Virus record (IMG/VR): IMGVR_UViG_3300013004_000034
DNA: 64,000 nt
Strand: one strand, 5' to 3'
DNA from: a virus
Lineage: Duplodnaviria; Heunggongvirae; Uroviricota; Caudoviricetes
Below, one piece after another: positions 1-25,413 of the stretch (position 1 is the stretch's first letter; each line of letters begins with the position of its first letter). Both the position numbers and the translations under genes were made by a program. The notes under the pieces were generated by a model. The model ran no database searches. It was not told the origin of the DNA and saw nothing but the letters and a program-made list of their open reading frames with translations.

Positions 1-69
1 AGGCGCAGGGTGGTAACGATCCACCACTAACCGGCTTATGAGACCAGTAGGAACACCTGTTCCTGCGCC
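1..69 (-). tRNA. partial tRNA-like element, possible tRNA-Met (CAU); the 3' end is cut by the window edge
   Basis: The reverse complement gives acceptor GGCGCAG/CTGCGCC, an anticodon arm with loop CUCAUAA, and T-arm GGTGG-ATCGTTA-CCACC. The D arm is short and atypical, and the CCA would lie beyond position 1. Confidence 0.3.
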
Positions 70-75
70 AAAGTA

Positions 76-151
76 TGGAGCGGGTGGCCGGTAACGCTCC
101 GGTCCTGTCTAGCTTGGAAGGCTAGCGCACATCTATCTATACCACACCCGC
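76..151 (-). tRNA. non-canonical tRNA-Gly(UCC)-like
   Basis: The reverse complement gives acceptor GCGGGTG/CACCCGC with encoded CCA, anticodon arm CTAGC-CTTCCAA-GCTAG, and a 5-bp T stem. The D loop lacks GG and the T loop is AGCGTTA, so the usual T-Psi-C is absent. Confidence 0.4.
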
Positions 152-320
152 AAAATGTACTGGTGTATTTTACTTAGCCCAACCAGTAGGCTCTCCCCTC
201 AATGCTGTTCGTATTAACATTTTCCGGTCTGTTAATACCTACTGGGCACGGGAACTAAATTAGCTGAGCCTCACGTCATTGGCTCGTATGTCGTCTGGAA
301 TTCTCAATAAACGACGTGCG

Positions 321-689
321 CTATGCGCTTCGTATCCAGATCAAACTCTGTGTATATGTAAACTTACCAATTAGAAATTTCTTGGTTGGGTTCTTAGAAT
401 GTAAAAGACCTACGATCTTATGTAGGTTCTTACGAGTCTTTGATTTTGGTAAAAATGCAAATTCCGAATCCCAGTCTCCATAGTATCGGTCGCGAATCTC
501 ATAATCCTCACCCATATAAACCGATCTTTGACCGCGAGGCCTAAGCATATAAATTGGGCCGGAGTATCTCACTGCATCATGATATCTCATCTTCTGCAGA
601 ATTTTCCTGACCTTGATTTGAGTCATACGATCAATTTGCAACATAACAATCTCCATAAAAGTATCAAAAACCAGGGCCCTGGAACCCAT
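321..689 (-). CDS. hypothetical protein
   Basis: 122-aa ORF with no recognisable motif. Confidence 0.3.
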   Translation of the reverse strand: MGSRALVFDTFMEIVMLQIDRMTQIKVRKILQKMRYHDAVRYSGPIYMLRPRGQRSVYMGEDYEIRDRYYGDWDSEFAFLPKSKTRKNLHKIVGLLHSKNPTKKFLIGKFTYTQSLIWIRSA

Positions 690-861
690 AGGTGGATTTA
701 TCGGTTTTACCAGCAGTCAGCTTGAGGTCGGGTTCCCTATTTACACCGACTAGTCTTTGAACTTGGTAGGCGACCCGAGTTTCGATCTCGGTCTAGAACA
801 GTCATCTACTGCTAAAGGGTTTATAAGTCCCTCTCGTGTCCCAACACCGTCGCCTAAAACT

Positions 862-936
862 TGGTGCCTCTTTCCGGAATCGAACCGAATTCTGAGCATT
901 ACAAGTGCCCTGCATCGCCATTTATGCTTAAGAGGC
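862..936 (-). tRNA. tRNA-Thr(UGU)
   Basis: Full cloverleaf on the reverse complement: acceptor GCCTCTT/AAGAGGC, anticodon loop CTTGTAA, T loop TTCGATT, CCA encoded. Confidence 0.7.
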
Positions 937-940
937 ATAG

Positions 941-1015
941 TGGTACTTCCGGTTGGTAACGATCCAACTACCTCTCGCTTATCAAGCAAGCGCTCTACCA
1001 TTGAGCTACGGAAGC
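941..1015 (-). tRNA. tRNA-Ile(GAU)
   Basis: Acceptor GCTTCCG/CGGAAGT (one GU pair), D arm GCTC-AATGGTA-GAGC, anticodon loop TTGATAA, T arm GTTGG-ATCGTTA-CCAAC, CCA encoded. Confidence 0.6.
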
Positions 1016-1022
1016 ATGAAAT

Positions 1023-1097
1023 TGGCTGGGCAGACAGGACTCGAACCTGTAACCGTCCGGTTAACAGCCGGATGCTCTACCATTGAGCTACTACCCA
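1023..1097 (-). tRNA. tRNA-Asn(GUU)
   Basis: Acceptor TGGGTAG/CTGCCCA, D arm GCTC-AATGGTA-GAGC, anticodon loop CTGTTAA, T arm ACAGG-TTCGAGT-CCTGT, discriminator G then CCA. Confidence 0.65.
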
Positions 1098-1103
1098 AGA
1101 AAT

Positions 1104-1178
1104 TGGAAGATCCACCCGGAATTGAACCGGGGTAACAGGATTTGCAGTCCCGTGCCTAAGCCATTCGACCATGGATCT
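1104..1178 (-). tRNA. tRNA-Cys(GCA)
   Basis: Acceptor AGATCCA/TGGATCT, anticodon arm CGGGA-CTGCAAA-TCCTG, T arm CCCGG-TTCAATT-CCGGG, CCA encoded. The D stem is weak, at 3 bp. Confidence 0.5.
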
Positions 1179-1183
1179 AAAAT

Positions 1184-1258
1184 TGGTGGGATGGGGGAAT
1201 TTCGAAATCCCGACCCGCTGGTTAAGAGCCAGCCGCTCTGCCTCTGAGCTACCATCCC
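1184..1258 (-). tRNA. tRNA-Lys(CUU)-like
   Basis: Acceptor GGGATGG/CCATCCC, a perfect anticodon arm GCTGG-CTCTTAA-CCAGC, and CCA encoded. The T stem has a U53-U61 mismatch, so it may be atypical or a pseudo-tRNA. Confidence 0.45.
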
Positions 1259-1290
1259 ATAAACTTATTTATCATCCGCTCTATGAGATC

Positions 1291-1319
1291 ATATTACCAT
1301 ATTTGAGGTTCTATGTCAA
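1291..1319 (-). promoter_or_regulatory. sigma70-type promoter internal to the tRNA array
   Basis: Minus strand reads TTGACA, a 17-nt spacer, then TAATAT. Confidence 0.45.
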
Positions 1320-1344
1320 CCAAAGAGTTAGTAACCTAGAAGAT

Positions 1345-1419
1345 TGGAGGACCCTCTGGGGATCGAACCCAGGACGTACCGATTAAAAGTCGGTTGTTCT
1401 ACCACTGAACTAAGGGTCC
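1345..1419 (-). tRNA. tRNA-Lys(UUU)
   Basis: Acceptor GGACCCT/AGGGTCC, D arm GTTC-AGTGGTA-GAAC, anticodon arm ACCGA-CTTTTAA-TCGGT, T arm CTGGG-TTCGATC-CCCAG, CCA encoded. Confidence 0.7.
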
Positions 1420-1423
1420 GCAA

Positions 1424-1499
1424 TGGTGACCCCATCGGGGATCGAACCCGATTCTCCGGTTTGAGAGACCGGGATTCTAACCAAATAAACTATGGGGTC
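1424..1499 (-). tRNA. tRNA-Glu(CUC)
   Basis: Acceptor GACCCCA/TGGGGTC, anticodon arm CCGGT-CTCTCAA-ACCGG, T arm TCGGG-TTCGATC-CCCGA, CCA encoded. The D stem has two GU pairs. Confidence 0.5.
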
Positions 1500-1525
1500 G
1501 TGATAATTTGTAATCTACTATGGCT

Positions 1526-1693
1526 TTAACCTTTCCAGTGAAAGCCGGTGATAGGGCTAAAGTAGCCAATCTCTCGGCCGTCAGGCTGGAGAAGTATTGC
1601 CTCAAAACAAGCACGCTTCATATGATTAGTAGCCGCATCCACAGATTGGAAAGACTTGGTATAAGCAAAGTTTGTAAAGCTTACCAGGTACAT
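1526..1693 (-). CDS. small early ORF (55 aa), not in the ORF track
   Basis: An ATG sits directly after the leader GGTCATATCAACAGAGGGA, which follows a consensus promoter. The RBS is GAGGGAA. Confidence 0.3.
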   Translation of the reverse strand: MYLVSFTNFAYTKSFQSVDAATNHMKRACFEAILLQPDGREIGYFSPITGFHWKG

Positions 1694-1720
1694 TGTCTGA
1701 TTCCCTCTGTTGATATGACC

Positions 1721-1749
1721 ATTATAACCGGTCTAGGTCACTTTGTCAA
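1721..1749 (-). promoter_or_regulatory. consensus sigma70-type early promoter
   Basis: Minus strand reads TTGACA-17-TATAAT. It is followed by the leader GGTCATATCAACAGAGGGA, which is shared with the promoter at 2034..2062. Confidence 0.6.
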
Positions 1750-1822
1750 CGGTAGATTTGTTAACTTTTTGTAACCTAGACCGTATACAAGATACCATAT
1801 TCAATTGTCAAAGAGCAAGAAC

Positions 1823-2005
1823 TCAGACTTCCTTAATTCCGTTACAGGAGGCTTTCAGACTCAGAAGAAAGGACGAGTCAGCCTTGAAGAGAGCATGGTC
1901 GATAGCATCATTCTCAGTGTATGCAGTAACCTCGACCAGGAAGAGACCGATAAACTTACCGGATTGACGGTCAGAGATAGCAATCTCAACTTCGAAGTTT
2001 CGCAT
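1823..2005 (-). CDS. small early ORF (60 aa, MRNFEVEIAISD...)
   Basis: Uses the same promoter-leader as 1526..1693. The likely start is the ATG after GAGGGATACGACGAG, and the track ORF extends upstream in the same frame. Confidence 0.35.
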   Translation of the reverse strand: MRNFEVEIAISDRQSGKFIGLFLVEVTAYTENDAIDHALFKADSSFLLSLKASCNGIKEV

Positions 2006-2033
2006 CTCGTCGTATCCCTCTGTTGATATGACC

Positions 2034-2062
2034 ATTATACCAGGATTGTAGGAGGCTGTCAA
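2034..2062 (-). promoter_or_regulatory. consensus sigma70-type early promoter with an upstream palindrome
   Basis: Minus strand reads TTGACA-17-TATAAT. The palindrome ATTACAAATTTGTAAT at 2073..2088 lies just upstream of the -35. Confidence 0.6.
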
Positions 2063-2111
2063 CGGTAGTTTTATTACAAATTTGTAATCTAAGATACTGT
2101 ATACAAAGCGG

Positions 2112-2184
2112 CGAAGGTGGTAGGAGTCGAACCTTCGCCTGCGGTTTTGGAGACCGCCGTGCTACCGTAACACTTCACCGACGC
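2112..2184 (-). tRNA. tRNA-like element, possible degenerate tRNA-Trp(CCA)
   Basis: Anticodon arm GCGGT-CTCCAAA-ACCGC, D arm GTGT-TACGGTA-GCAC and T loop TTCGACT are present. The acceptor pairing is poor, and an 8-bp helix GGCGAAGG/CCTTCGCC competes with it. Confidence 0.3.
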
Positions 2185-2198
2185 AAACTATGCCTTAT

Positions 2199-3635
2199 TT
2201 AGGCATAGCGCTCATGCATGATAGTCTTCATCATAACACCCGTTGGAGTCATATCTTCCATGTCTCCTGAGAGCACGGACTTCAAGATCGAAGGGCTAAA
2301 GCCGGAGACCAAAGCAACTCCACGCTCATTGAACTTCACCGGCACATTGCTAGCTGCCATGATGTTCCAGAACACAATATTCGGAACAGTATAGCCAGCA
2401 GTTTCGTACTTACGGCGAATCATCTGCATTGCAGTATCATCAAAGCGAGTGCACTGGTCAAACTGCATGTCAGACATGATCAGCAGAGTAGCAGGCATCT
2501 CGGACTGAGGTACATCACCCTTGATTGCAACGTCAAGAATCTTCTCAAACGCAGCATGAAGATTGGTATTCATCTCCCACTTCGAAGTTACCATCTGCTG
2601 CACCTTCTGCAGGATATCACCCTTCAGATGCAAAAGCTGAGGGGAAGAAGAGAAGGTCAGGAATGTATCCTTGAACTTGCCCTTGTTCTTATCAGCACAG
2701 TACAGACCAAGGCTGACAGCTACGTCCATTGCGGTAGTCTTACCACCTGCAACACCAGCACCCATTGAGCCAGAGACGTCAACAAGAGCCAACACGTTAG
2801 CATCACCAACGTAGTTAGGCAGAGCATCCCACTGAGCCTTAACGACATCAAGTTCAGTCTTGTTATAGTCTGAACGCCAAGCGTAGTTGCTGACACCCTT
2901 CAGGACGTCATACGGATAAACTGCACCAGCGTTAACCTTTACAGTCTTGTCGCCCTTGACCAGCTTATCAACCCACTCCTTATACTTCGGAGTGTGGCGG
3001 TTGAAGGCCTTCTTATAACGGCTAGCCGCTACAGACGGAACATGAGAGAAGTTGATCTCATCCCAGTTCTTGGCACACATCTGAGTCTCAACAACCTTAG
3101 ATGCAGTGACAAGGGTCTTGCGGTACTGCTTAGGGCTCATGCCGAGCTTATTGCGCAGCTTGACAGCCATAGCACCCTTACGCGGGGTCCACTTGGCACA
3201 CAGACCATCATTGGCCATCAGTGCACGGCCGATCTTGGATGCAACAACATTCTGAATGTCTTCATCTACATCGTCCTCAAGCAGAACCAGAAGGTCATCC
3301 CAACGGCCGAGCTCAGGAGTCTTGTCAATGAGTCGAGTCAGCTCATGACCCATCAGATTCTTTGCTGCATGACGAAGAACCTTACGGTAGATCTCACGCT
3401 CACCTGCACCATTGCGGGCATCACGAGCCCAGAGTGCAATACGAGTGGCAATCTCGGCATCCTCAACAAATGCCGCCGTAAACGCAGGAATAGGATCCTG
3501 TCCACGCAGAGCGCCAATCTTGAAGAAGAGGTCTACGCATGCAGACGCGGTAGAAGCACGAGCCTTCATACCATTCTGAGTTCTGGAATCTTGGTTGATA
3601 ACGGCATTTACGAACGTATTCATCATAATCTCCAT
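2199..3635 (-). CDS. Ro60/TROVE-family protein with a C-terminal vWA (MIDAS) domain, Rsr-like
   Basis: The C-terminal ~190 aa align motif-by-motif to the Ro60 vWA domain: VDVSGSM/DVSASM, TFLTFSSSP, IMSDMQF/FTDNETF, GVALVSGFSPSILKSV/GMLDMCGFDTGALDVI. The N-terminus is alpha-helical and TROVE-like. The real start may be the internal Met at 3623. Confidence 0.65.
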   Translation of the reverse strand: MEIMMNTFVNAVINQDSRTQNGMKARASTASACVDLFFKIGALRGQDPIPAFTAAFVEDAEIATRIALWARDARNGAGEREIYRKVLRHAAKNLMGHELTRLIDKTPELGRWDDLLVLLEDDVDEDIQNVVASKIGRALMANDGLCAKWTPRKGAMAVKLRNKLGMSPKQYRKTLVTASKVVETQMCAKNWDEINFSHVPSVAASRYKKAFNRHTPKYKEWVDKLVKGDKTVKVNAGAVYPYDVLKGVSNYAWRSDYNKTELDVVKAQWDALPNYVGDANVLALVDVSGSMGAGVAGGKTTAMDVAVSLGLYCADKNKGKFKDTFLTFSSSPQLLHLKGDILQKVQQMVTSKWEMNTNLHAAFEKILDVAIKGDVPQSEMPATLLIMSDMQFDQCTRFDDTAMQMIRRKYETAGYTVPNIVFWNIMAASNVPVKFNERGVALVSGFSPSILKSVLSGDMEDMTPTGVMMKTIMHERYA

Positions 3636-3743
3636 AATGTTTAACAGGTTGGACTTGGTTGCTATATCAAAGCTTTAGATGCTGAACCCAACCTAGGGTT
3701 ATAACAGGATCGTTTTTTGCCCCCTCGGGCAGCTGCCAGGTCT

Positions 3744-3775
3744 TGGTTGGCAATGTTGGAGTCGAACCAACTAAA
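3744..3775 (-). ncRNA. isolated T-arm plus acceptor 3' strand plus CCA element (tRNA-like fragment)
   Basis: The reverse complement reads GTTGG-TTCGACT-CCAAC ATTGCCA A CCA. No matching 5' acceptor or canonical anticodon arm lies upstream. Confidence 0.3.
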
Positions 3776-3945
3776 AGGTTTTGCTGAACCGATCCTAGAA
3801 CTAATAAAGTAACAGAGTGGCTCCTACTTCTTTTTTAGCCTTGAGAAATCGAAGAACAAGGTTGTTGGTTTTGCCGAAGCTCCCCAACTGTTCTGGATGC
3901 GCTTGTAGGCGCGACGGTGTTGCTGTAACCACTCTAATATTAGAC

Positions 3946-4037
3946 AGGAAGCCTATAGTGCGGATTTGAACCGCTCCTATCGCGTTGAAGGCGATTGCTC
4001 TACCATTGAGTTAGATATGGTTTGCTGCAAGCTTCCT
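3946..4037 (-). ncRNA. tRNA-like cloverleaf module inside an extended terminal stem; candidate Y-RNA-like or pseudo-tRNA with an opal-reading UCA loop
   Basis: Contains D arm ACTC-AATGGTA-GAGC, a perfect anticodon-type arm ATCGC-CTTCAAC-GCGAT (anticodon UCA) and T arm GCGG-TTCAAAT-CCGC. There is no canonical acceptor stem. Instead a 7-bp terminal stem AGGAAGC/GCTTCCT encloses the module. Confidence 0.35.
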
Positions 4038-4159
4038 AAAACTTGTCGGGATCGTTTTGGTCCGCTAAGACTTACAGGGTTTAGCGTTTTTTGTTTGCTG
4101 AACCGATCCTAATAGTCGGGAATGAGGCTTAGTGAGTGTCTCATTCAATTTATAGGTTG

Positions 4160-4188
4160 ACTATATATCAAATTCCTTGATTTGTCAA
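4160..4188 (-). promoter_or_regulatory. sigma70-type promoter inside the ncRNA region
   Basis: Minus strand reads TTGACA, a 17-nt spacer, then TATAGT. Confidence 0.5.
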
Positions 4189-4237
4189 CCCACTTTTTAC
4201 ATCTGGAGCAGCTTTTTATGGTATAAAGCGCAAAAAT

Positions 4238-4313
4238 TGGTACCCGCTACGGGACTCGAACCCGTCCTGTAAAGATTTTAAGTCTTTTGCCTCTGCCGGT
4301 GGGCTAAGCGGGC
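4238..4313 (-). tRNA. tRNA with anticodon UAA (Leu-reading) but type-I architecture (5-nt variable loop)
   Basis: Acceptor GCCCGCT/AGCGGGT, anticodon arm AAAGA-CTTAAAA-TCTTT, T arm ACGGG-TTCGAGT-CCCGT, discriminator A, CCA encoded. Confidence 0.5.
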
Positions 4314-4314
4314 T

Positions 4315-4391
4315 TGGTAGTCACGGTCGGATTCGAACCGACACTTAACAGATTTTGAATCTGCCGCCTCTGCCAGTTGGGCTACGCGACC
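4315..4391 (-). tRNA. tRNA with anticodon CAA (Leu-reading), type-I architecture; paralog of 4238..4313
   Basis: Acceptor GGTCGCG/CGTGACT with two GU pairs, anticodon arm GCAGA-TTCAAAA-TCTGT, T arm GTCGG-TTCGAAT-CCGAC, discriminator A, CCA encoded. It shares the D-arm sequence GCCC..GGCAGAGG with its neighbour. Confidence 0.45.
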
Positions 4392-4399
4392 ATATTTCC

Positions 4400-4873
4400 T
4401 TATAGAGTATTTATATCATATATGTAGTTGTCTGTCAACTCATTTTCGCAAAAAAGTTTGGCACCGTTAGTAAGATGGAACTTACGAGCCATGGCAGTCT
4501 TAGGGCTGAGAGTACAGGCTACTTTAGTATACGGTCTTGTTGCTTTGATGTGCCGCAGTGTCTTGTTTAAGACTTCGCGTCCAGCTCCTGAAACATTGCT
4601 CCAGACCGTGTAAAAGCATGCTACATTTTGACGCGAGACGTCTACAAAGAGATCATCTTCAATTGTAGGAATATCATCTAGATAAGCAACGCATGTAACT
4701 GCACGCACAAAATAATTTTCGCTGAGCAAAAAGTACTCACGATTATGAGCCACTCTTTGCCATGCTGGGATATGAGGTCTGACAGGATCACCTATCAAAC
4801 ACCCTTCCCAGCAAGATCTAAAGTCACGTACTACAGTCAGTTGATGCATTGGCGGTTTCCGTTCTAAACACAT
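4400..4873 (-). CDS. hypothetical protein (weak GNAT-like pattern)
   Basis: 157-aa ORF. The pattern VSGAGREV ... ARKFHLTNGAKL is loosely acetyltransferase-like. Confidence 0.3.
   Translation of the reverse strand: MCLERKPPMHQLTVVRDFRSCWEGCLIGDPVRPHIPAWQRVAHNREYFLLSENYFVRAVTCVAYLDDIPTIEDDLFVDVSRQNVACFYTVWSNVSGAGREVLNKTLRHIKATRPYTKVACTLSPKTAMARKFHLTNGAKLFCENELTDNYIYDINTL
4410..4438 (-). promoter_or_regulatory. sigma70-type promoter driving the tRNA/ncRNA/Ro60 transcription unit
   Basis: Minus strand reads TTGACA-17-TATAAA, about 20 nt upstream of the first tRNA. Confidence 0.5.
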
Positions 4874-5123
4874 TCTCTGATGTATCTATCGGTTCTCCAC
4901 CAAAGAACTTAATGACTATACGAAGTGCACTGGCATAATTCTCATAATGAGTAATAGTGTCGATGTGATGCTGTGCATCCTCACAGCTCTTATCCATTAC
5001 AGCAATGGACTCAAATTCTAGAACTGACGTACAGGCATCGAGTGCTGCCTGACAATGCTTGACTACAATTTCGTCAAGTTGCTCATCATCTACCTTTACG
5101 TAGAGGTTTCCATTAATTTCCAT
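4824..5123 (-). CDS. hypothetical protein
   Basis: 99-aa ORF in the operon context. Confidence 0.3.
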   Translation of the reverse strand: MEINGNLYVKVDDEQLDEIVVKHCQAALDACTSVLEFESIAVMDKSCEDAQHHIDTITHYENYASALRIVIKFFGGEPIDTSENVFRTETANASTDCST

Positions 5124-5332
5124 TATTCATTCTTTCCTAGAATGTCAATACGCTTACATTCAAGACATGCAGCATAGCCACACGACCTGAGGAAGTCTTC
5201 AAACTTACCAATCACATCATAAACAGATAGATCGGCGCCTTGCATTTGAATATTAACACGGTCTACAATAGGAATGCCGGACTCCGATATACTAGTCGGA
5301 GCATACATCTCAAAGGTAAAGTGCTGTTGCAT
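5123..5332 (-). CDS. hypothetical protein
   Basis: 69-aa ORF. Confidence 0.25.
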   Translation of the reverse strand: MQQHFTFEMYAPTSISESGIPIVDRVNIQMQGADLSVYDVIGKFEDFLRSCGYAACLECKRIDILGKNE

Positions 5333-5336
5333 TATA

Positions 5337-6368
5337 TCACTCCTCGTTCTTCAGTAGCCAGCGATTACTAATAATCTTGAAGCTAGTGTCATTAGCCATA
5401 TTCTTGTACACCATTCCTTCGCGAGGCGGCTTCTTACCAATTAGAGACTGGCCATCGGCCGATGCAATTAGTGCATTAACGTCAGAAGTGCCAGTCGTTC
5501 CGGTAGCAAGCACAGGAACATGATTGAAGGCAAAGGCCTTGCAAAACTTACGGCGCTCATCGGGAGTCAGGTAGCAAGACTTGTTGATATCCCAGACATC
5601 AAAGACAAAGAAGTCGGTGGCATCAAGACCATACTTATTGCCCTGAATACCAGGGCCAATCAGCTCGCCCTGCAGAGCAAAACCTGCAGGAAGGCGCTGG
5701 TCGATATCTTCACGACGAACAGCCTGCCAGAATGCATTGCCTTCGGTCTCTTCCAGATCATAGTTACGAGAGCAGACACCGGTCACATCATTGTGCCGAT
5801 AAACCGTCATCGAAGAGCCATCAAGCTTCTCGGTAACTTCCCACCGAGCGCCTTCCTCTTCCCAACGACGGATGTCCTTAGTAAGATTCTGAACGCGTTC
5901 CTGATCAGTCTTGCGCAGGAAGCTAGGGAAATTACCCTTGACTACACCGGCAAGAGAACCATGAATGGGCTTTTCGTACTTCTGAATCTGAAGATACTCG
6001 GTCAGATCATCACCCTCTACAAGATAGTCAATATCACAAATGTACGAGTTGGAATCCCGTTCATCAAATGTGGCTACAGCAGACACCGGGAGCAGAAGTC
6101 CCTGGCTGATCTGCTTACAAAGCTTAATTGTTCGCAGACGTTCACCCTCAACTCCGTTGTACGTACGGCCACGGTTCAGGAAAGGCGCAATAGCCTTTGG
6201 AATCCAAGAGTCAATCTCAAAGTACACAGCCAGATCACCGACCTGGAAGTCGCCCTTCTTGACTACAACCTTCCATCCGTCAACCGTAGCTACGTCAATA
6301 GCATCAGCATCAGGGATGGGCTGAATGTCCGCAACGCGACGGACGGTAGCAAGCTTACGATCAGACAT
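5337..6368 (-). CDS. ATP-dependent RNA ligase-like nucleotidyltransferase with an N-terminal OB / tRNA-binding-like domain
   Basis: Covalent nucleotidyltransferase motifs are present: I TEKLDGSS, IV EGMVYK, V FKIISNRWLLK. The N-terminus (ADIQPIPDADAIDVATVDGWKVVVKKGDFQVGDLAVYFE) resembles a Trbp111/EMAP-type tRNA-binding fold. A promoter lies at 6394..6422. Confidence 0.55.
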   Translation of the reverse strand: MSDRKLATVRRVADIQPIPDADAIDVATVDGWKVVVKKGDFQVGDLAVYFEIDSWIPKAIAPFLNRGRTYNGVEGERLRTIKLCKQISQGLLLPVSAVATFDERDSNSYICDIDYLVEGDDLTEYLQIQKYEKPIHGSLAGVVKGNFPSFLRKTDQERVQNLTKDIRRWEEEGARWEVTEKLDGSSMTVYRHNDVTGVCSRNYDLEETEGNAFWQAVRREDIDQRLPAGFALQGELIGPGIQGNKYGLDATDFFVFDVWDINKSCYLTPDERRKFCKAFAFNHVPVLATGTTGTSDVNALIASADGQSLIGKKPPREGMVYKNMANDTSFKIISNRWLLKNEE

Positions 6369-6393
6369 ATCAATTCCTTTCCTTATAGCCTCA

Positions 6394-6422
6394 TTATACC
6401 AGGCTGGTAGGCGGCTGTCAAC
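6394..6422 (-). promoter_or_regulatory. consensus sigma70-type early promoter with an upstream palindrome
   Basis: Minus strand reads TTGACA-17-TATAAT. The palindrome ATTACAAATTTGTAAT lies at 6432..6447. Confidence 0.6.
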
Positions 6423-6468
6423 GGTAGTTTTATTACAAATTTGTAATCCGTTAACAGCCTATACCAAC

Positions 6469-6903
6469 TTACCTGACAGCCCGCGGTTGCATCTGCTGCT
6501 GGATCTGCTGAGTCTGCTGCTGGATCCAAGTTTGAAGAAGATTAATGGACGGATCAACTACATCCTGTACACGCTGGTGAGTCATGACTCGTTCGCCAAT
6601 TTCAGAAGCGGCAATTAGCAGCACGGTCTGACGGTTTGGAATTAGTGAAGTGGTAATACCTACAATTGTCATAGCAGCAAAAAATGCACATGAAAGCTTA
6701 AATGCCGCTACCTTTCGCTTTCGCCGAAGTGTTAGAATCGGTTCACTGAGTGGCCTAAAATCAGGCTGTTCATCCATATGGACAAAAGCAACAATAACAG
6801 CACCAATTGTTGCAATAGCAAAGAGAATCGTTATAAAAACCAGAAAGCCTGAAAGACTTTCTGCAACATTAGCGGCATAAATCAGCCAAGAAAGCGAATT
6901 CAT
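6469..6903 (-). CDS. small membrane protein (possible NfeD-like partner of the SPFH protein)
   Basis: Hydrophobic N-terminal helices (LVFITILFAIATIGAVIVAFV), and it lies immediately downstream of the SPFH gene. Confidence 0.35.
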   Translation of the reverse strand: MNSLSWLIYAANVAESLSGFLVFITILFAIATIGAVIVAFVHMDEQPDFRPLSEPILTLRRKRKVAAFKLSCAFFAAMTIVGITTSLIPNRQTVLLIAASEIGERVMTHQRVQDVVDPSINLLQTWIQQQTQQIQQQMQPRAVR

Positions 6904-7728
6904 TTAGCGAGTCCCCGGAAGGTTAATGAATGGCACACCATTTGTAGCAGCGGGCAGCTGTCCGTTCCACTTCTGCGCAGCCATGTACTGAACAAGCTCA
7001 GGTGTAATGCTCAGCGCAATGATGCGGTTAGCTGCAGCCTGTCCATCAGCCTCAATCCGCTGGCGCTCGGCTTCCTGACGTGCAGTCTCTACCTGCTGTC
7101 GGCGCTGTTCAGTTTCCTGACTTGCAGTGATACGGCGATTGATAGCTGCTTCGGTTTCTGCTGCCAGTCGGAATCGGCCCACAGCATATACGTTGTCGAC
7201 AATAATGCCGTGTGGGGCCATACGCTCCTTAACCGTCTTGAGTACTTCATCCATAAATGCATTCTTACCTTCACCAATCAGATCCTCGATGCGGCGAGTA
7301 CTAGCGGCACTGGTAAGTGCATCACGGACTTCATTGCGAAGAGTCTGTCGAGTAATCTCGATTGCACCCATACGATATCGGGCAAAGATGTCCGGAATAC
7401 GATCTCGCTGAAAGCTATATTGAATGCCAAAGTCGCTGTTGATATTAGCACCCTCGCGGCTCTGAAAGTCAATGGCTTCGTCGGTAGGACTCTGCGGAGT
7501 GATTGCCTTTGTCCATACATAGTTTTGCACGAACGTGGGGAATGTGTAGAGCCGCTCAGTGAAACCAATCCAGTGACGACCAGGCTCAAGCAGAGCACGC
7601 TGCACACCTCGCTCACCACCAGCAGTAGTGACCTTAACACCTACGGTGCCAGGCTCAATATAGTCACATGCTGCAGTGGTCGACAGAACCAGAGCACTAA
7701 TAGCAAAGGTCTTAGCAATCTTATTCAT
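6904..7728 (-). CDS. SPFH/band-7 (prohibitin/HflC-like) domain lipoprotein
   Basis: Signal peptide with a Cys (LSTTAAC), then an SPFH-like core and an alanine/glutamate-rich coiled tail (ETEQRRQQVETARQEAERQRIEADGQAAANRI). Confidence 0.45.
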   Translation of the reverse strand: MNKIAKTFAISALVLSTTAACDYIEPGTVGVKVTTAGGERGVQRALLEPGRHWIGFTERLYTFPTFVQNYVWTKAITPQSPTDEAIDFQSREGANINSDFGIQYSFQRDRIPDIFARYRMGAIEITRQTLRNEVRDALTSAASTRRIEDLIGEGKNAFMDEVLKTVKERMAPHGIIVDNVYAVGRFRLAAETEAAINRRITASQETEQRRQQVETARQEAERQRIEADGQAAANRIIALSITPELVQYMAAQKWNGQLPAATNGVPFINLPGTR

Positions 7729-7729
7729 A

Positions 7730-7993
7730 TCAATTCTTCTCCATGATGCGGTTGATATACTTTATGAGGGAAGCAAGCTGCGCATAGAGCGTCAGGGTTA
7801 CAAAAAGGATAGCAAAAGGCAATGCTATAAAGACAAGTTCACTCTCAAGTGAAAATACCTTTGGAACATACACCATAACTAGGATGGCAGTCACACAGAT
7901 GCCTGTAATTCGCGTTACAAAATTGGCAACTGTACTAAACTTTGGAGTCATTCTTATTCCTCTTCTGCAATAAGTCGGATAATGTGACGGCAC
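7730..7993 (-). CDS. small membrane protein
   Basis: 87 aa with two hydrophobic helices. Confidence 0.3.
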   Translation of the reverse strand: MPSHYPTYCRRGIRMTPKFSTVANFVTRITGICVTAILVMVYVPKVFSLESELVFIALPFAILFVTLTLYAQLASLIKYINRIMEKN

Positions 7994-8021
7994 TTGTTAA
8001 ACTTTCGTAATCCGGTATACA

Positions 8022-16123: not shown

Positions 16124-16446
16124 TACTTATCCTTTTCATAATGTGTGTTGTGGTAGTTTAAAGCAAGTACAGTATAGTGAAGGACCTTCATTAGATCATC
16201 CTTACTATGACCATTCTTTTTACCATATCTTGATGCATACTTGATGATATTGCCCATGTAGAATCCTTCTCCATGCCCTGACGAGACTATAAGGTCTTGT
16301 GCTTGGACACGGTCACCGTAGTGACTACCATAGGACTTTTTGATATATGCATGAAGTTCGTCTAGGATATTACCCTCATTGTACTTGAATGGGGTGTCCT
16401 TCAACTGTGGATATTTATCACTCAAATCCATCGGTATCCTTTCCAA
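16123..16446 (-). CDS. DUF3310-like phage protein
   Basis: The motif SGHGEGFYMGNIIKYASRYGKK is present. Confidence 0.3.
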   Translation of the reverse strand: MERIPMDLSDKYPQLKDTPFKYNEGNILDELHAYIKKSYGSHYGDRVQAQDLIVSSGHGEGFYMGNIIKYASRYGKKNGHSKDDLMKVLHYTVLALNYHNTHYEKDK

Positions 16447-17287
16447 AGGTATTGCTAAATGTAACTTTTTGCTCTAATTCACGAGCATCCTTCTTGTAGA
16501 GCTTCCTATACTTGTTGTTGGAGCTAATGACTTCCTTCAACACAGTCATATCTACACCAAGACCATCTGCAAAGTGAGCCAAAGCAGATGTATCCTTAGG
16601 GAAACAAGCACCACCATAGCCTCGCCTACCATCAAAGCCAGGAACTGTTGTGTGAGAACGACCAACACGACTATCAGCCGTAATAGCACCTACGACTTTA
16701 CCGAAATTAGATCCATGCTTGTTGACCACATCATAAAACTGATTGAACCACAGGACCTTACTAGCAAGATAGCTGTTAATGCCATACTTAACAAAACTTG
16801 CTTCTACTGCGGTCATATGATATGTCGGGCAAGGCTTACAGATGCTATAGAACTTATATAGATGTTCTACTTTTTCCGTAGCTGTAGGATTGCCACCAAG
16901 AATATGCATGAAAGGATTGACAAAATCCTCATTTGCACTCTTTTCGGTAAGGAACTCTGGATTATACACCATCCGATCAGATGAGTCAACCATATTAAGT
17001 AGATTTTCGATGATATCCGGAGTCACAGTTGACTTGATAATGATTGTTACACTCGGATGAAGCTTGAGCTTCTCAATAACATTGTTGATGATTGATGCAT
17101 CAATCTTTCCGTCTGCTCCCATAGGAGTAGGAACACAGACAAAAGCATAAGAAATATCTAGAGTCAGAAGATCATCAACTGAATTTCCATACTTCGGATC
17201 AATGATGATCTTCTGACACATATTATCAGGGAAGCCATAATCTACAGCCTTCCCAACAAATCCATGCCCGATAATTGCAATTTGCAT
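16418..17287 (-). CDS. UDP-sugar 6-dehydrogenase family protein (short form)
   Basis: The N-terminal Rossmann sequence MQIAIIGHGFVGKAVDYGF is followed by the VPTP and GGACFPKD catalytic-Cys signatures. Confidence 0.55.
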   Translation of the reverse strand: MQIAIIGHGFVGKAVDYGFPDNMCQKIIIDPKYGNSVDDLLTLDISYAFVCVPTPMGADGKIDASIINNVIEKLKLHPSVTIIIKSTVTPDIIENLLNMVDSSDRMVYNPEFLTEKSANEDFVNPFMHILGGNPTATEKVEHLYKFYSICKPCPTYHMTAVEASFVKYGINSYLASKVLWFNQFYDVVNKHGSNFGKVVGAITADSRVGRSHTTVPGFDGRRGYGGACFPKDTSALAHFADGLGVDMTVLKEVISSNNKYRKLYKKDARELEQKVTFSNTFGKDTDGFE

Positions 17288-18249
17288 TAGTTCACTCCAT
17301 AATAATGCTTATACCACTCAGCAAATTTAGCCACACCTGCAGGAATAGAAGTTGTAGGCTTCCACCCGAGTGACTGAAGCTTACTGGTGTCAGACCAGGT
17401 CTCTAAAGTATCTGCCGGATGTTGGGGTATCAAGTTCTTCTTAATCTCACGACCAAAGTTCTTTTCAATCTCAGAGATAAAGTCCATGAGATTAACCTGA
17501 CGACCGCGGCCGATGTTGTAGATCTCATTCATAGGTACTTCGAGCGCTACAATCCGATTGACAACTAGATTTATGCCTGAGACAATATCATCCACATAAG
17601 TGAAGTCACGTTTCATGTTTCCGAAGTTGAAAACATCGATGGTCTTGTCATTCACAGCAGCATCTGCAAACTGAAAGAGCGCCATATCAGGTCGACCATA
17701 CGGACCATAAACTGTAAAGAATCGAAGTCCGATGGTGTTCTGAAGACCCGAAGTCATGAACTGGCATTCGTTCATGCGCTTAGTATAGCCATACGGATTG
17801 AGTTGATGACCGGTAGGCATATCTTCAACCCATGGCAAAGGATTGCCAGCCATAACACATGAAGTAGAAGCATAGATGACCTTCTTGATCTTCTTTGCCT
17901 TACAGAATTCAATAAGGTTCTGCGTGCCCACTACATTGTTGTCGATGTATTCCATTGCATTATCATACGAGTGTCGAACACCTACTGATGCCGCAAGATG
18001 AATCACCAAATCAAATTCCATGAGCTTGAAGTACTCTTCAAGCCTATTCTTGTCTCTAAGATCCTTCTTTACTACCGGAACACCATAGGACTCGTCAAGG
18101 ATTCCCGCTCGTGTCTTCTTGAGATCCACATCATAGTAGTCACTAAAGTTGTCCAACCCGAACACGGTGTGCTCAGGATTATCGGACAGGCGCTTGCAAA
18201 GATGAAAGCCAATGAAGCCAGCGGCTCCAGTAACAAGGATCCTAGTCAT
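17287..18249 (-). CDS. NAD-dependent nucleotide-sugar epimerase/dehydratase (SDR)
   Basis: TGAAGFIGFHL, YGYTKRMNE (YxxxK), and 320 aa. Confidence 0.7.
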   Translation of the reverse strand: MTRILVTGAAGFIGFHLCKRLSDNPEHTVFGLDNFSDYYDVDLKKTRAGILDESYGVPVVKKDLRDKNRLEEYFKLMEFDLVIHLAASVGVRHSYDNAMEYIDNNVVGTQNLIEFCKAKKIKKVIYASTSCVMAGNPLPWVEDMPTGHQLNPYGYTKRMNECQFMTSGLQNTIGLRFFTVYGPYGRPDMALFQFADAAVNDKTIDVFNFGNMKRDFTYVDDIVSGINLVVNRIVALEVPMNEIYNIGRGRQVNLMDFISEIEKNFGREIKKNLIPQHPADTLETWSDTSKLQSLGWKPTTSIPAGVAKFAEWYKHYYGVN

Positions 18250-25410: not shown

Positions 25411-25413
25411 CTG

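What the first reader, a model, noticed from the sequence alone, without database searches (positions are those of the whole stretch)
1..6450. Ro60 (Rsr)-like gene embedded in a tRNA / tRNA-like array next to an Rnl-type RNA ligase: candidate phage RNA quality-control / Y-RNA module
The 478-aa protein at 2199..3635 has a C-terminal vWA domain. It aligns block-by-block with the Ro60 vWA/MIDAS domain: VDVSGSM, TFLTFSSSP, IMSDMQF, GVALVSGFSPSILKSV. It sits on the same strand, between a canonical tRNA array (862..1499) and a block of tRNA-like ncRNAs (3744..4391). All are driven by consensus promoters at 4410..4438 and 4160..4188. Two genes further on, at 5337..6368, is a covalent nucleotidyltransferase with ligase motifs KLDGS, EGMVYK and KIISNRWLLK, plus an OB/tRNA-binding-like N-terminal domain. 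In bacteria, Rsr is co-encoded with Y RNAs, whose signature is a tRNA-like module, and with the RtcB ligase. This locus is an analogous arrangement, using an Rnl-type ligase, inside a T4-like virus. That suggests a phage RNA repair, decay or decoy system, possibly countering host anticodon nucleases.
Basis: partly seen in the sequence, partly recalled or inferred. Interest (0 to 1): 0.85.

Follow-up and report, generated by a model that had tools for sequence, protein, structure and literature searches.

The report
Phage Ro60-like protein with handle RNAs
A T4-like phage encodes a distant structural relative of the Ro60 RNA-binding ring protein, and just upstream lie five small structured RNAs that share a conserved "handle", an RNA family found next to this gene in many unrelated phages and likely to be the phage counterpart of Y RNAs.

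Summary

The new result is in the 3641..4113(-) stretch. It is not a loose set of tRNA-like RNAs but five tandem units. Each is closed by a covarying 6-7 bp helix followed by a loop NNNCAGCAA, with a 3' UGUU tail, around a variable insert (a hairpin, a tRNA-like body, or a T-arm). The same handle lies on the same strand next to homologous genes in 71/76 metagenomic loci and in ten further phage lineages. It is absent from the T4 and T5 tRNA regions and from 596 Gb of bacterial genomes. Some inserts are YrlA-like permuted tRNA mimics, below the Rfam cut-off.

The most likely explanation is a divergent Ro60/Y-RNA-type ribonucleoprotein. Binding is inferred, not shown. Linkage to the ligase is not conserved (0/80 loci).

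Two earlier papers speculated about Y RNAs for homologues (Bas63 gp130, Listeria CKA15_055). Neither defined the RNA.

The parts
2199..3635 (-). Ro60-like protein gene of the DUF2828 + DUF7788 family, PHROG 850. The likely true start is 3623, giving 474 aa.
3641..3697 (-). Handle RNA unit U5, the one nearest the gene, with a short hairpin insert. Closing helix AGGUUGG/CCAACCU, loop GUUCAGCAU, tail GUU. It ends 18 nt before the likely start codon.
   Evidence: Model R1 scores 42.3 bits, E 1e-7 over the whole window. Fold. Orthologues in L275, L209 and L276.
3701..3799 (-). Handle RNA unit U4. Closing helix GGAUCG/CGAUCC, loop GUUCAGCAA. The insert has a T-arm (GUUGG UUCGACU CCAAC) plus two hairpins, which looks like a degenerate YrlA-type module.
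   Evidence: R1 scores 30.4 bits, E 9e-5. Fold z-score -2.9. The L275 orthologue shows compensatory changes in the closing helix and in one inner helix. The unit at the same position in L209 is a full T-arm, closed-acceptor, D-arm module.
3809..3938 (-). Handle RNA unit U3. Closing helix AGAGUGG/CCACUCU, loop UUACAGCAA. The insert ends in the conserved hairpin CCUUG-UUCUUCGAUUUCU-CAAGG followed by AAAAAAGAAGUAGGAG.
   Evidence: Found by the stem+motif scanner and missed by R1. Fold. Orthologues in L209 and L276 have compensatory inner helices. The same insert class recurs in many loci.
3944..4040 (-). Handle RNA unit U2. Closing helix AGGAAGC/GCUUCCU, loop UUGCAGCAA. The insert is a tRNA-like body (D arm, anticodon arm with UCA, T arm) with no acceptor stem.
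   Evidence: R1 scores 18.0 bits, E 0.01 with filters off. ARAGORN calls it 'tRNA-SeC(tca)' at 3951..4020. Rfam tRNA scores 35.6 bits over model positions 8-63. Fold z-score -2.7. The L275 orthologue keeps the UCA anticodon and has a compensatory change in the anticodon stem.
4043..4113 (-). Handle RNA unit U1. Closing helix GGAUCG/CGAUCC, loop GUUCAGCAA. The insert is the conserved hairpin CGCUAA...UUAGCGGAC. The tail is CGA rather than UGU.
   Evidence: R1 scores 19.7 bits. Seven to nine orthologues share the UUAGCGGAC hairpin.
4160..4188 (-). Sigma-70-type promoter, TTGACA-17-TATAGT, directly upstream of U1.
   Evidence: 11 of 12 matches. Sequence.
4238..4391 (-). Two tRNAs with Leu anticodons, UAA and CAA. 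Both are 76-77 nt with short variable arms.
   Evidence: ARAGORN. Rfam tRNA scores 52.1 and 57.4 bits.
4410..4438 (-). Promoter-like site, TTGACA-17-TATAAA, upstream of the two tRNAs.
   Evidence: Read from the sequence. Not listed by the scanner because its last base is A.
2110..2182 (-). tRNA-Trp, starting 17 nt downstream of the Ro-like gene.
862..1499 (-). Array of seven canonical tRNAs (Glu, Lys, Lys, Cys, Asn, Ile, Thr). It contains no handle units.
5337..6368 (-). Rnl5-family (NgrRnl/DraRnl-type) RNA ligase with its own perfect promoter at 6421..6393. It is a neighbour, and its linkage to the Ro-like gene is not conserved.
   Evidence: Pfam PHA02142 OB domain E 6e-32 and RNA_ligase E 4e-33. 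PDB 5cot_A E 3e-80, residues 2-342 against 3-338, with KLDGS aligned. Promoter. No Rnl5 homologue in 0/80 related loci.
6469..7728 (-). Membrane protein (6469..6903) and SPFH/Band-7 lipoprotein (6904..7728) upstream of the ligase. This fits the theme of RNA-repair neighbourhoods, but the linkage is not conserved.
   Evidence: Pfam Band_7 E 1e-24. PHROG 200 and PHROG 3878. No Band-7 homologue in 0/80 related loci.

Best explanation
The gene at 2199..3623(-) encodes a highly diverged Ro60-type protein: a helical TROVE-like ring domain plus a vWA/MIDAS domain. The five tandem RNAs at 3641..4113(-) are its cognate non-coding partners, playing the role that Y RNAs play for Ro60.

Each RNA has a constant 'handle' and a variable insert:
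- The handle is formed by the RNA's own 5' and 3' ends. It consists of UUUUA, a 6-7 bp helix starting GG/GA, an asymmetric internal loop (N-U-W-C-A-G-C-A-A opposite an A-rich strand), and a 3' UGUU tail.
- The handle is the presumed protein-binding site.
- The insert varies: a simple hairpin, a tRNA body, a T-arm module and, in relatives, a YrlA-like permuted tRNA mimic or larger domains. By analogy with Y RNAs, it would tether the particle to other factors such as tRNA-processing, decay or repair enzymes.

The array is transcribed early from strong sigma-70-type promoters together with tRNAs, and is presumably cut into units at the U/A-rich junctions (UGUUGA|UUUAGG).

What is shown:
- the fold of the protein;
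- the RNA architecture and its covariation;
- the tight, strand-specific co-location of handle and gene across phages of at least six host phyla;
- the virus specificity of the handle.

What is inferred:
- physical binding;
- processing into discrete RNAs;
- the cellular role. RNA quality control or counter-defence is suggested by Bas63 gp130, a Felixounavirus family member reported to counter the Ppl defence system.
For: Protein:
- The MIDAS motif is invariant.
- Homologues are annotated 'Ro-like' or given an HHpred match to Rsr by others.

RNA in the window:
- Model R1 hits the 64-kb window only at the units upstream of the gene.

RNA in related metagenomic loci:
- There are 189 units in the 1 kb upstream of the gene in 80 loci. 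That is 2.6 per kb, against 0.12 per kb elsewhere on the same strand and 0.05 per kb on the opposite strand. 71 of 76 loci have at least one unit.
- Of 150 motif-only hits, 137 are closed by a perfect complementary 6-mer, against 29-39 for control 6-mers.
- Six of seven helix pairs covary.

Virus specificity and strand:
- A pattern that does not require pairing gives 133/138 paired matches in viral contigs and 0/56 in 596 Gb of bacterial genomes.
- 41 of 120 handle-selected loci hold the gene, always on the same strand.

Other phage lineages:
- Handles lie next to homologues of 29-48% identity in phages of Synechococcus, Escherichia (Felixounavirus), Cronobacter, Listeria, Mycobacterium, Campylobacter, Staphylococcus, Enterococcus, Bacillus and Fusobacterium.
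- There are none in the T4 or T5 tRNA regions.

Link to Y RNAs and tRNA mimicry:
- Inserts with a T arm, closed acceptor and D arm match Rfam YrlA end to end at 34-42 bits.
- In Cronobacter phage S13 the handle appears as a capped hairpin in place of the anticodon loop of otherwise complete tRNAs. This fits a binding module better than a cleavage site.

Expression:
- In Listeria phage CKA15 the three most transcribed regions lie within 2 kb upstream of the homologue (PMC12282133). By synteny, one of them is the handle array.
Against: - There is no binding or expression data for this phage.
- TROVE and vWA_Ro60 HMMs are not matched, and a family profile finds no Ro60 in PDB sequences.
- The AF2 model has only moderate confidence (pLDDT 70, pTM 0.51).
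- YrlA matches are below Rfam's cut-off of 69 bits, and the handle sequence differs from the Ro-binding site of known Y RNAs.
- Many short handles sit far from the gene, directly 5' of tRNA genes. A processing or leader role independent of the protein is therefore possible.
- Two lineages with the gene show no adjacent handle: Acinetobacter ME3 and Vibrio nt-1.
- Bas63 gp130 counters Ppl when expressed alone from a plasmid or from T7, which lacks these RNAs. At least that activity does not need phage-encoded handle RNAs.
- Genome-wide co-occurrence of handle and gene was not measured.
Confidence: 0.6

Rival explanations
1. The handles are cis-acting punctuation elements of long tRNA/ncRNA transcripts: processing, stability or folding signals for host RNase E, RNase III or RNase P. 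They would have no direct relation to the Ro-like protein, and they accumulate near it only because the gene lies in the tRNA region.
For: Most handle-pattern hits that are not next to the gene sit 6-10 nt upstream of a tRNA gene. The junctions UGUUGA|UUUAGG are U/A-rich and single-stranded, resembling RNase E sites (the RNase E preference is from my own knowledge).
Against: The tRNA clusters of T4 and T5 have no handles. In the window, the seven-tRNA array at 862..1499 has none, while all five units abut the gene. In Staphylococcus, Fusobacterium and Mycobacterium phages the handles flank the gene with few or no tRNAs nearby. The Cronobacter S13 version is a capped hairpin inside a tRNA, where no ends are produced.
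Confidence: 0.2
2. The unit nearest the gene is a translational operator in the 5' UTR of the Ro-like mRNA, used for autoregulation. The other copies would be decoys or duplications.
For: In most loci a short unit ends 7-25 nt before the start codon, immediately 5' of the Shine-Dalgarno sequence.
Against: In Felixounavirus, Staphylococcus and Mycobacterium phages the units lie downstream of the gene. Units carry elaborate, conserved inserts, including tRNA mimics. This rival still requires the protein to bind the handle, so it is compatible with the main explanation rather than opposed to it.
Confidence: 0.1
3. This is the first reader's composite: the Ro-like protein, the RNAs and the Rnl5 ligase (with the Band-7 protein) form one RNA-repair system that reseals tRNAs cut by host anticodon nucleases.
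For: The ligase is a genuine Rnl5 nick-sealing type about 1.7 kb from the gene on the same strand, with a Band-7 gene beside it. Other lineages place the homologue near RNA-repair genes: RtcB and an RNA ligase in Listeria LP-048, and Band-7 plus a tRNA in mycobacteriophage Snenia. Published comparative genomics links Ro/Y RNA and Band-7/tRNA-like RNAs to RNA ligases.
Against: None of 80 loci at 60-65% identity has an Rnl5 or Band-7 homologue within 6 kb, and none of the close relatives fetched with 8-kb flanks does. The ligase has its own promoter, and three unrelated small ORFs intervene. No end-healing enzyme was found among the neighbours tested.
Confidence: 0.15
4. The handle is a small self-cleaving ribozyme or other autonomous RNA device that processes the tandem array.
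For: The units are arranged in tandem with invariant nucleotides (C, G, C, A in the loop; UGU at the 3' end) and conserved junctions.
Against: No Rfam ribozyme family matches, even at permissive thresholds. The handle also occurs as a closed hairpin with no junction. The conserved core is very small.
Confidence: 0.03

Closest known systems
Bacterial Ro60 (Rsr) with the Y RNA YrlA (Chen et al. 2014, PMC4201824; Rfam RF02553)
   Same: Both have a ring-type helical domain plus a vWA/MIDAS domain. In both, the partner RNAs are encoded within a few hundred nt on the same strand. In both, the RNA ends pair into a stem with an internal loop, and the variable part can be a permuted tRNA mimic (T arm, closed acceptor, D arm). 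Those inserts match the YrlA model end to end.
   Different: The protein belongs to DUF2828/DUF7788 rather than Pfam TROVE. The RNAs score 34-42 bits against a cut-off of 69. The conserved handle (helix + NNNCAGCAA + UGUU) is not the Ro-binding sequence of known Y RNAs. The units come in tandem arrays of 1-7 with many kinds of insert, and they also occur scattered through tRNA arrays.
Thermus phage phiLo phiRo60 with Yrl1/Yrl2 (PMC12135203; PDB 9KOP, 9L5Y)
   Different: phiRo60 is a recognisable TROVE protein. Its Yrl RNAs were picked by a CGAA motif rather than the CAGCAA handle. Binding to the RNAs and to host PNPase has been shown for phiLo and for nothing here.
Bas63 gp130 (Felixounavirus; PhageMaP preprint 10.1101/2024.10.10.617714)
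   Different: I did not retrieve the Bas63 sequence itself, so family membership is inferred from genus and gene position. The paper defines no RNA. Here the handles are located between the tRNAs (L081 6716-7516). gp130 has a measured phenotype: it counters Ppl, and does so even on its own in T7.
Listeria phage CKA15_055 and the three highly transcribed unannotated regions (PMC12282133)
   Same: It is a homologue in the same genus as LP-048 and cka16, which are 33-34% identical to the window protein. HHpred's best match is Rsr. The most abundant phage transcripts come from within 2 kb upstream, on the same strand, and the authors proposed Y RNAs.
   Different: The RNAs were not analysed in that paper. 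By synteny with cka16, the top region is a ROOL RNA, another is the three-unit handle array, and the third is an unknown RNA. The protein was detected in purified virions there. That is unknown here.
Band-7/b7a-tRNA and Rot/TROVE RNA-repair neighbourhoods (Burroughs & Aravind 2016, as cited in 10.1101/312249 and PMC7824862)
   Same: The theme is the same: a scaffold protein, a tRNA-like RNA and an RNA ligase. The window has a Band-7 gene, an RNA ligase and tRNA-like RNAs within 5.5 kb.
   Different: The ligase is Rnl5 rather than RtcB. The linkage is not conserved among relatives. I could not read the 2016 paper itself.
Naegleria gruberi RNA ligase NgrRnl / Deinococcus DraRnl (Rnl5 family; PDB 5COT)
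   Same: The alignment is full-length (E 3e-80), with an N-terminal OB domain, a nucleotidyltransferase domain and the KLDGS motif.
   Different: Activity was not tested. The gene is phage-encoded. It is an ordinary member of PHROG 968.
Stable RNAs of unknown function in the T4 (rnaC, rnaD) and T5 (RNAI, RNAIII, RNA1, RNA2 and others) tRNA clusters
   Same: These are small stable RNAs, some tRNA-like, co-encoded with phage tRNAs.
   Different: None carries the handle.

Membership tests
Ro60 / TROVE (Pfam PF05731 TROVE + PF25045 vWA_Ro60) | A sequence match to the TROVE domain model | tested here: not met
   hmmscan against Pfam at E<=0.1 lists no TROVE hit. A profile of 40 homologues finds no Ro60 among PDB sequences.
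Ro60 / TROVE (Pfam PF05731 TROVE + PF25045 vWA_Ro60) | A sequence match to the Ro60-type vWA domain model | tested here: not met
   vWA_Ro60 scores 13.2 bits, E 0.089, against a cut-off of 27.7. VWA_2 scores 18.9 bits against a cut-off of 27.
Ro60 / TROVE (Pfam PF05731 TROVE + PF25045 vWA_Ro60) | The overall fold: a helical-repeat domain followed by a vWA domain, as in solved Ro60 structures | tested here: met
Ro60 / TROVE (Pfam PF05731 TROVE + PF25045 vWA_Ro60) | The MIDAS motif DxSxS...T...D in the vWA domain | tested here: met
   D286, S288, S290, T357 and D389 are invariant in alignment A1.
Ro60 / TROVE (Pfam PF05731 TROVE + PF25045 vWA_Ro60) | Binds Y RNA on the outer surface and RNA 3' ends in the central cavity | not testable with these tools
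   Needs biochemistry or a structure of the complex.
DUF2828/DUF7788 phage 'RNA-binding protein' (PF11443 + PF25043; PHROG 850) | Matches to both domain models and to the PHROG profile over its full length | tested here: met
   DUF7788 scores 173.6 bits and DUF2828 scores 86.6 bits. PHROG 850 scores 455.9 bits, residues 5-478 against 1-475 of 476. 705 GenBank phage records carry a homologue.
Y RNA / YrlA (Rfam RF00019, RF02553) | Reaches the Rfam gathering score | tested here: not met
   There is no Y_RNA hit. YrlA scores at most 27.8 bits in the window, and that hit lies over genuine tRNAs. tRNA-mimic units in related loci score 34-42 bits against a cut-off of 69.
Y RNA / YrlA (Rfam RF00019, RF02553) | The 5' and 3' ends pair into a stem with an internal loop, enclosing a variable module | tested here: met
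   Closing-helix covariation and closure statistics. Folds of U1-U5.
Y RNA / YrlA (Rfam RF00019, RF02553) | A tRNA-like domain (T arm, closed acceptor, D arm) | tested here: inconclusive
   It is complete in relatives: L005, L011, L075, L207 and L209. In the window, U2 has D, anticodon and T arms without an acceptor stem, and U4 has a T arm only.
Y RNA / YrlA (Rfam RF00019, RF02553) | Encoded within about 4 kb of the Ro gene on the same strand | tested here: met
   In the window, 6-490 nt upstream of the annotated ORF. 71/76 loci. Same strand in 41/41 cases.
Rnl5 RNA ligase (NgrRnl/DraRnl) | An N-terminal OB domain plus a C-terminal nucleotidyltransferase domain with the KxDG lysine | tested here: met
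   PF21189 and PF09414. 5cot_A E 3e-80, with KLDGS aligned.
Rnl5 RNA ligase (NgrRnl/DraRnl) | Seals 3'-OH/5'-phosphate nicks in duplex RNA | not testable with these tools
   Needs an enzymatic assay.
Band-7 / b7a-tRNA / RtcB repair neighbourhood | A Band-7 protein next to RtcB and a dedicated tRNA-like RNA | tested here: not met
   The Band_7 domain is present, but the adjacent ligase is Rnl5 rather than RtcB. No tRNA-like RNA was found between them. The linkage is absent in 80 related loci.

The most novel reading that the evidence does not exclude
The CAGCAA-handle RNAs are a previously undefined, widespread class of modular phage non-coding RNAs. They would be the obligate partners of the DUF2828 Ro-like proteins, which occur in at least 705 GenBank phages and thousands of metagenomic clusters. 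Together they would form a viral Ro/Y-type particle. Its interchangeable modules (tRNA mimics, a tRNA whose anticodon loop is replaced by the handle, and 160-280 nt domains with no known family) would direct it to different host or phage RNA machineries. That would be the mechanism behind the counter-defence activity seen for Bas63 gp130.
Probability: 0.45. Interest if true: 0.85.

Novelty: new variant of a known kind. Interest (0 to 1): 0.72.

Why it matters
Ro60 and Y RNAs are a conserved but poorly understood RNA-surveillance system. In phages, only true TROVE proteins have had candidate RNAs assigned.

This work gives the much larger DUF2828 'Ro-like' phage family a concrete RNA partner that can be searched for. 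The defining motif is simple, its specificity is very high (133/138 hits paired in viral contigs, 0/56 in bacterial genomes), and its architecture is modular.

Two published speculations become experiments that can be run in tractable systems (E. coli Felixounavirus, Listeria P100-like phages):
- that some of the Bas63 'tRNAs' are Y RNAs;
- that the hyper-abundant CKA15 transcripts are Y RNAs.

It also has practical consequences for annotation:
- It flags mis-annotated features, such as over-long 'tRNAs' and tiny ORFs laid over handle units.
- It points to several large structured RNA modules that belong to no known family.

Tried and rejected
- Sequence routes to Ro60 failed. Pfam TROVE and vWA_Ro60 gave no usable hit. 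phmmer and a family profile against PDB sequences found nothing. One search repeated by mistake.
- Rfam gave nothing for the handle region, at gathering or at permissive thresholds.
- My first motif regular expression was out of register and returned only noise. It was corrected.
- RNAalifold on MAFFT-aligned U1 orthologues mis-registered the closing helix and was uninformative.
- Model R1 misses units with long inserts, such as U3. Counts for those rest on a stem+motif scanner whose helix requirement is circular for covariation. I therefore used two tests that do not require pairing.
- I looked for handles in the 610-nt tRNA-free stretch at 1500..2110 and in the 86-nt gap at 1259..1344. Both hold promoters, and the longer stretch also holds small ORFs, but there are no handles.
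- Conserved linkage of the Ro-like gene with the Rnl5 ligase or the Band-7 gene was tested and rejected.
- Degenerate tRNA pseudogenes or chance repeats were rejected as an explanation, because the helices covary and the motif is conserved across phyla.
- Two literature searches failed on term syntax. I could not find or read Burroughs & Aravind 2016 directly.

Full report
**What is in the window.** All genes in 1..8000 are on the minus strand. In the direction of transcription the order is:
- an SPFH/Band-7 lipoprotein (7728..6904) and a small membrane protein (6903..6469);
- a perfect sigma-70 promoter (6421..6393);
- an RNA ligase (6368..5337) and three small ORFs with no family;
- a promoter-like site (4438..4410) and two tRNAs (4391..4238);
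- a near-consensus promoter (4188..4160);
- about 470 nt of non-coding sequence;
- the 478-aa ORF (3635..2199) and tRNA-Trp (2182..2110);
- two small ORFs, each with its own perfect promoter;
- seven tRNAs (1499..862).

The rest of the window encodes the T4-type clamp loader, sliding clamp, gp46-like nuclease, portal, major head protein and tail sheath, so 'T4-like virus' is correct. No close nucleotide relative exists among GenBank phages.

**The protein.**
- By sequence it is DUF2828 + DUF7788 and PHROG 850 'RNA-binding protein'. The TROVE model is not hit, and the Ro60-type vWA model is far below its cut-off.
- Homologues start at MNTF, so the start codon is probably 3623.
- The family is large. 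tBLASTn finds it in 705 GenBank phage records, from Escherichia, Salmonella, Mycobacterium, Vibrio, Listeria, Staphylococcus, Campylobacter, Enterococcus, Bacillus and others. The protein search saturated at 8000 clusters.
- An AlphaFold2 model built from 40 homologues has moderate confidence (pLDDT 70). It shows an all-helical N-terminal part and an alpha/beta C-terminal part.
- Foldseek agrees independently. The only seven hits with E<=1e-3 are Ro60/TROVE structures aligned over about 500 columns.
- The MIDAS residues are invariant.
- I therefore accept 'Ro60-like fold' but not 'member of Pfam TROVE'.

**The RNAs.**
- Reading 4160..3636 on the minus strand shows five tandem units, not a vague tRNA-like block.
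- Each unit begins (U)UUAGG, forms a 6-7 bp helix with a segment 40-110 nt downstream, has NNNCAGCAA immediately 3' of the 5' strand, and ends in YCUGUU.
- The inserts differ:
  - U1: a conserved CGCUAA...UUAGCGGAC hairpin.
  - U2: a tRNA body with D, anticodon (UCA) and T arms but no acceptor stem.
  - U3: a multi-hairpin module ending in a UUCGAUUUCU-loop hairpin.
  - U4: a T arm plus two hairpins.
  - U5: a short hairpin ending 18 nt before the likely start codon.

**Is it real?**
- I fetched 80 viral metagenome loci that encode 60-65% identical proteins.
- The motif alone is concentrated just upstream of the gene on the same strand.
- A stem+motif scanner finds 189 units in the 1 kb upstream. 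That is 2.6 per kb, against 0.12 per kb elsewhere on the same strand and 0.05 per kb on the opposite strand. 71 of 76 loci with enough upstream sequence have at least one.
- That scanner demands pairing, so I ran two tests that do not:
  - Of 150 motif-only hits, 137 are closed by a perfect complement of the preceding 6-mer within 260 nt. The figure is 29 for the reversed 6-mer and 39 for a shuffled one.
  - An exact pattern that leaves the four variable helix bases free was scanned against two collections. In viral contigs 133 of 138 matches have the perfect 4-nt complement. In 596 Gb of bacterial and archaeal genomes 0 of 56 do, and that count is no more than my rough chance estimate for a pattern of this size, about 130.
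- The helix sequence varies freely. Six of seven pairs show double changes, including a seventh pair that the scanner did not require.
- A covariance model built from 48 short units hits the whole 64-kb window only at U5 (42 bits), U4 (30) and U1 (20), and at U2 (18) with filters off.
- Orthologous units in relatives of 69-84% protein identity keep their structures through compensatory changes. Examples are the U2 anticodon stem, the U4 closing helix and the inner helices of U3.

**Breadth and specificity.**
- The handle lies next to homologues of only 29-48% identity, on the same strand, in ten further lineages:

| Phage | Number and position of handles |
|---|---|
| Synechococcus phage BUCT-ZZ01 | two, upstream (one at 51 bits) |
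| Felixounavirus AYO145A | four, between the tRNAs just downstream |
| Cronobacter phage S13 | downstream |
| Listeria LP-048 | three, upstream (41 and 38 bits) |
| Mycobacteriophage Snenia | three, downstream |
| Campylobacter CPX | two, upstream |
| Staphylococcus BE22 | three, downstream |
| Enterococcus EF5 | one, upstream |
| Bacillus Izhevsk | three, upstream |
| Fusobacterium Fnu1 | one, upstream |

- Two lineages showed none nearby: Acinetobacter ME3 and Vibrio nt-1.
- The tRNA clusters of T4 and T5 have none. The T5 stretch is 28 kb with 25 tRNAs and eight annotated stable RNAs.
- Among 120 loci selected only by the handle pattern, 41 contain the gene within the stored stretch, always on the same strand.
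- Most of the remaining loci place a short handle 6-10 nt upstream of a tRNA gene. So handles also occur scattered through the large tRNA arrays of these phages.

**Relation to Y RNAs.**
- Units of about 110-130 nt contain a T arm, an acceptor-like stem closed by a loop, and a D arm. This is the permuted tRNA mimic that defines YrlA.
- These units match Rfam YrlA over the whole model at 34-42 bits. That gives E of 1e-7 to 1e-3 in the searches run, but it is below the cut-off of 69.
- Other units carry unpermuted tRNA bodies, like U2.
- In Cronobacter phage S13, two features annotated as over-long tRNAs are complete cloverleaves. Their anticodon loop is replaced by the handle as a capped hairpin (GCAAAC-UGACAA-GUUUGU-AUUCAGCAC), a circular permutation of the usual unit.
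- The handle is therefore a self-contained module that does not need free ends. This favours a protein-binding site over a cleavage signal.
- Larger inserts of about 165 nt and 230-280 nt are conserved and match nothing in Rfam.

**The ligase and Band-7.**
- The ligase is a full-length homologue of Naegleria NgrRnl (E 3e-80), with the N-terminal OB domain and KLDGS.
- None of the 80 related loci has an Rnl5 or Band-7 homologue within 6 kb. None of the close relatives examined with 8-kb flanks does either.
- Thematic parallels exist elsewhere. Listeria LP-048 has RtcB and an RNA ligase 1.3-4 kb downstream. Mycobacteriophage Snenia has a Band-7 gene and a tRNA 1.3 kb upstream.
- This matches the published 'syntax' of RNA-repair neighbourhoods.
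- I treat the ligase as a neighbour, not as a proven component.

**Prior knowledge.**
- Chen et al. 2014 found YrlA only beside TROVE-annotated proteins.
- The phiLo study showed that a TROVE-type phage Ro60 binds two upstream Yrl RNAs and host PNPase.
- The CKA15 study reported that the three most transcribed regions of a P100-like Listeria phage are unannotated. They lie within 2 kb upstream of the Rsr-like gene on the same strand, and the authors suggested they might be Y RNAs. It also found the protein in purified virions.
- By synteny with phage cka16, the CKA15 top region (26,236-26,727) coincides with a ROOL RNA (26,195-26,746). ROOL scores 90 bits in LP-048, just under its cut-off. The handle array (25,216-25,611) and an unknown 340-nt RNA are the other two promoter-driven, gene-free stretches within 2 kb. 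This mapping is an inference.
- No paper or Rfam family that I could find defines the handle.

**Verdict.**
- The ligase coupling is not supported.
- The best explanation is a divergent Ro/Y-type ribonucleoprotein whose RNAs share a newly defined handle (confidence 0.6). The main rival is a protein-independent processing or leader element of tRNA transcripts.
- This is a new variant of a known kind. The idea had been voiced for homologues, but the RNA family, its architecture and its distribution are new. They are directly testable in E. coli and Listeria phages.

Noticed in passing
L206 (Listeria phage LP-048) 3475-4026; equals cka16 record 26,195-26,746: A full-length ROOL RNA (Rfam RF03087, 90 bits against a cut-off of 99.1, E 5e-17) lies about 1 kb upstream of the Ro-like gene. 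If CKA15 and cka16 are collinear, it coincides with the most highly transcribed region reported for phage CKA15 (26,236-26,727), which that paper left unidentified.
   Followed up: partly
L206 3006-3346: A promoter-driven stretch of about 340 nt with no gene lies just before a tRNA. It matches no Rfam family and has no handle. It may be the third highly transcribed RNA of P100-like phages.
   Followed up: no
window 4238-4391 (-): Both tRNAs with Leu anticodons (UAA, CAA) are 76-77 nt with short variable arms, unlike the long-arm bacterial and T4 tRNA-Leu. Similar short 'tRNA-Leu' genes are annotated near the homologous gene in Campylobacter CPX and Felixounavirus AYO145A.
   Followed up: no
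L083 (Cronobacter phage S13) 7895-8015 and 8025-8137: Features annotated as tRNA-Ser (121 nt) and tRNA-OTHER (113 nt) are cloverleaves whose anticodon loop is replaced by a capped handle hairpin. They are probably not decoding tRNAs.
   Followed up: partly
related loci, e.g. L047 5521-5682 and 5692-5927; L028, L031, L056: Two conserved large insert classes sit inside handles. One is about 165 nt, with CUGGAG...UUGAAGG...GAGUGAUGGCC. The other is about 230-280 nt, with repeated UAGAA/AUAGA and GAACCGAUAUACUGGGGAUGGGG. Neither matches any Rfam family.
   Followed up: no
window 16418-19214 (-): A UDP-glucose dehydrogenase-like protein, an NAD-dependent epimerase and a TET-associated glycosyltransferase lie side by side. 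This suggests a DNA base hypermodification module.
   Followed up: no
window 1291-2062 and 6393-6421 (-): There are several perfect 12/12 TTGACA-17-TATAAT promoters (6421..6393, 2062..2034, 1749..1721). Two of them each drive one small ORF (about 55-60 aa) that sits between tRNAs.
   Followed up: no
window 4400-4873 (-): The 157-aa ORF between the ligase and the tRNAs has no Pfam or PHROG family. Homologues of 38-45% identity recur within 6 kb of the Ro-like gene in 7 of 80 related loci.
   Followed up: partly
L269 (Staphylococcus phage BE22) 4528-4617: An annotated 29-aa 'hypothetical protein' overlaps the first handle unit and is probably a spurious call. Similar tiny ORFs cover handle or RNA regions in other records.
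   Followed up: no
window 79-151 (-): A weak extra tRNA-like match (Rfam tRNA 30.7 bits, just above the cut-off) that ARAGORN does not call.
   Followed up: no
literature (PMC12282133): The Listeria homologue CKA15_055 was detected in purified virions (20 peptides, 57% coverage). This raises the possibility that the Ro-like protein is packaged.
   Followed up: no
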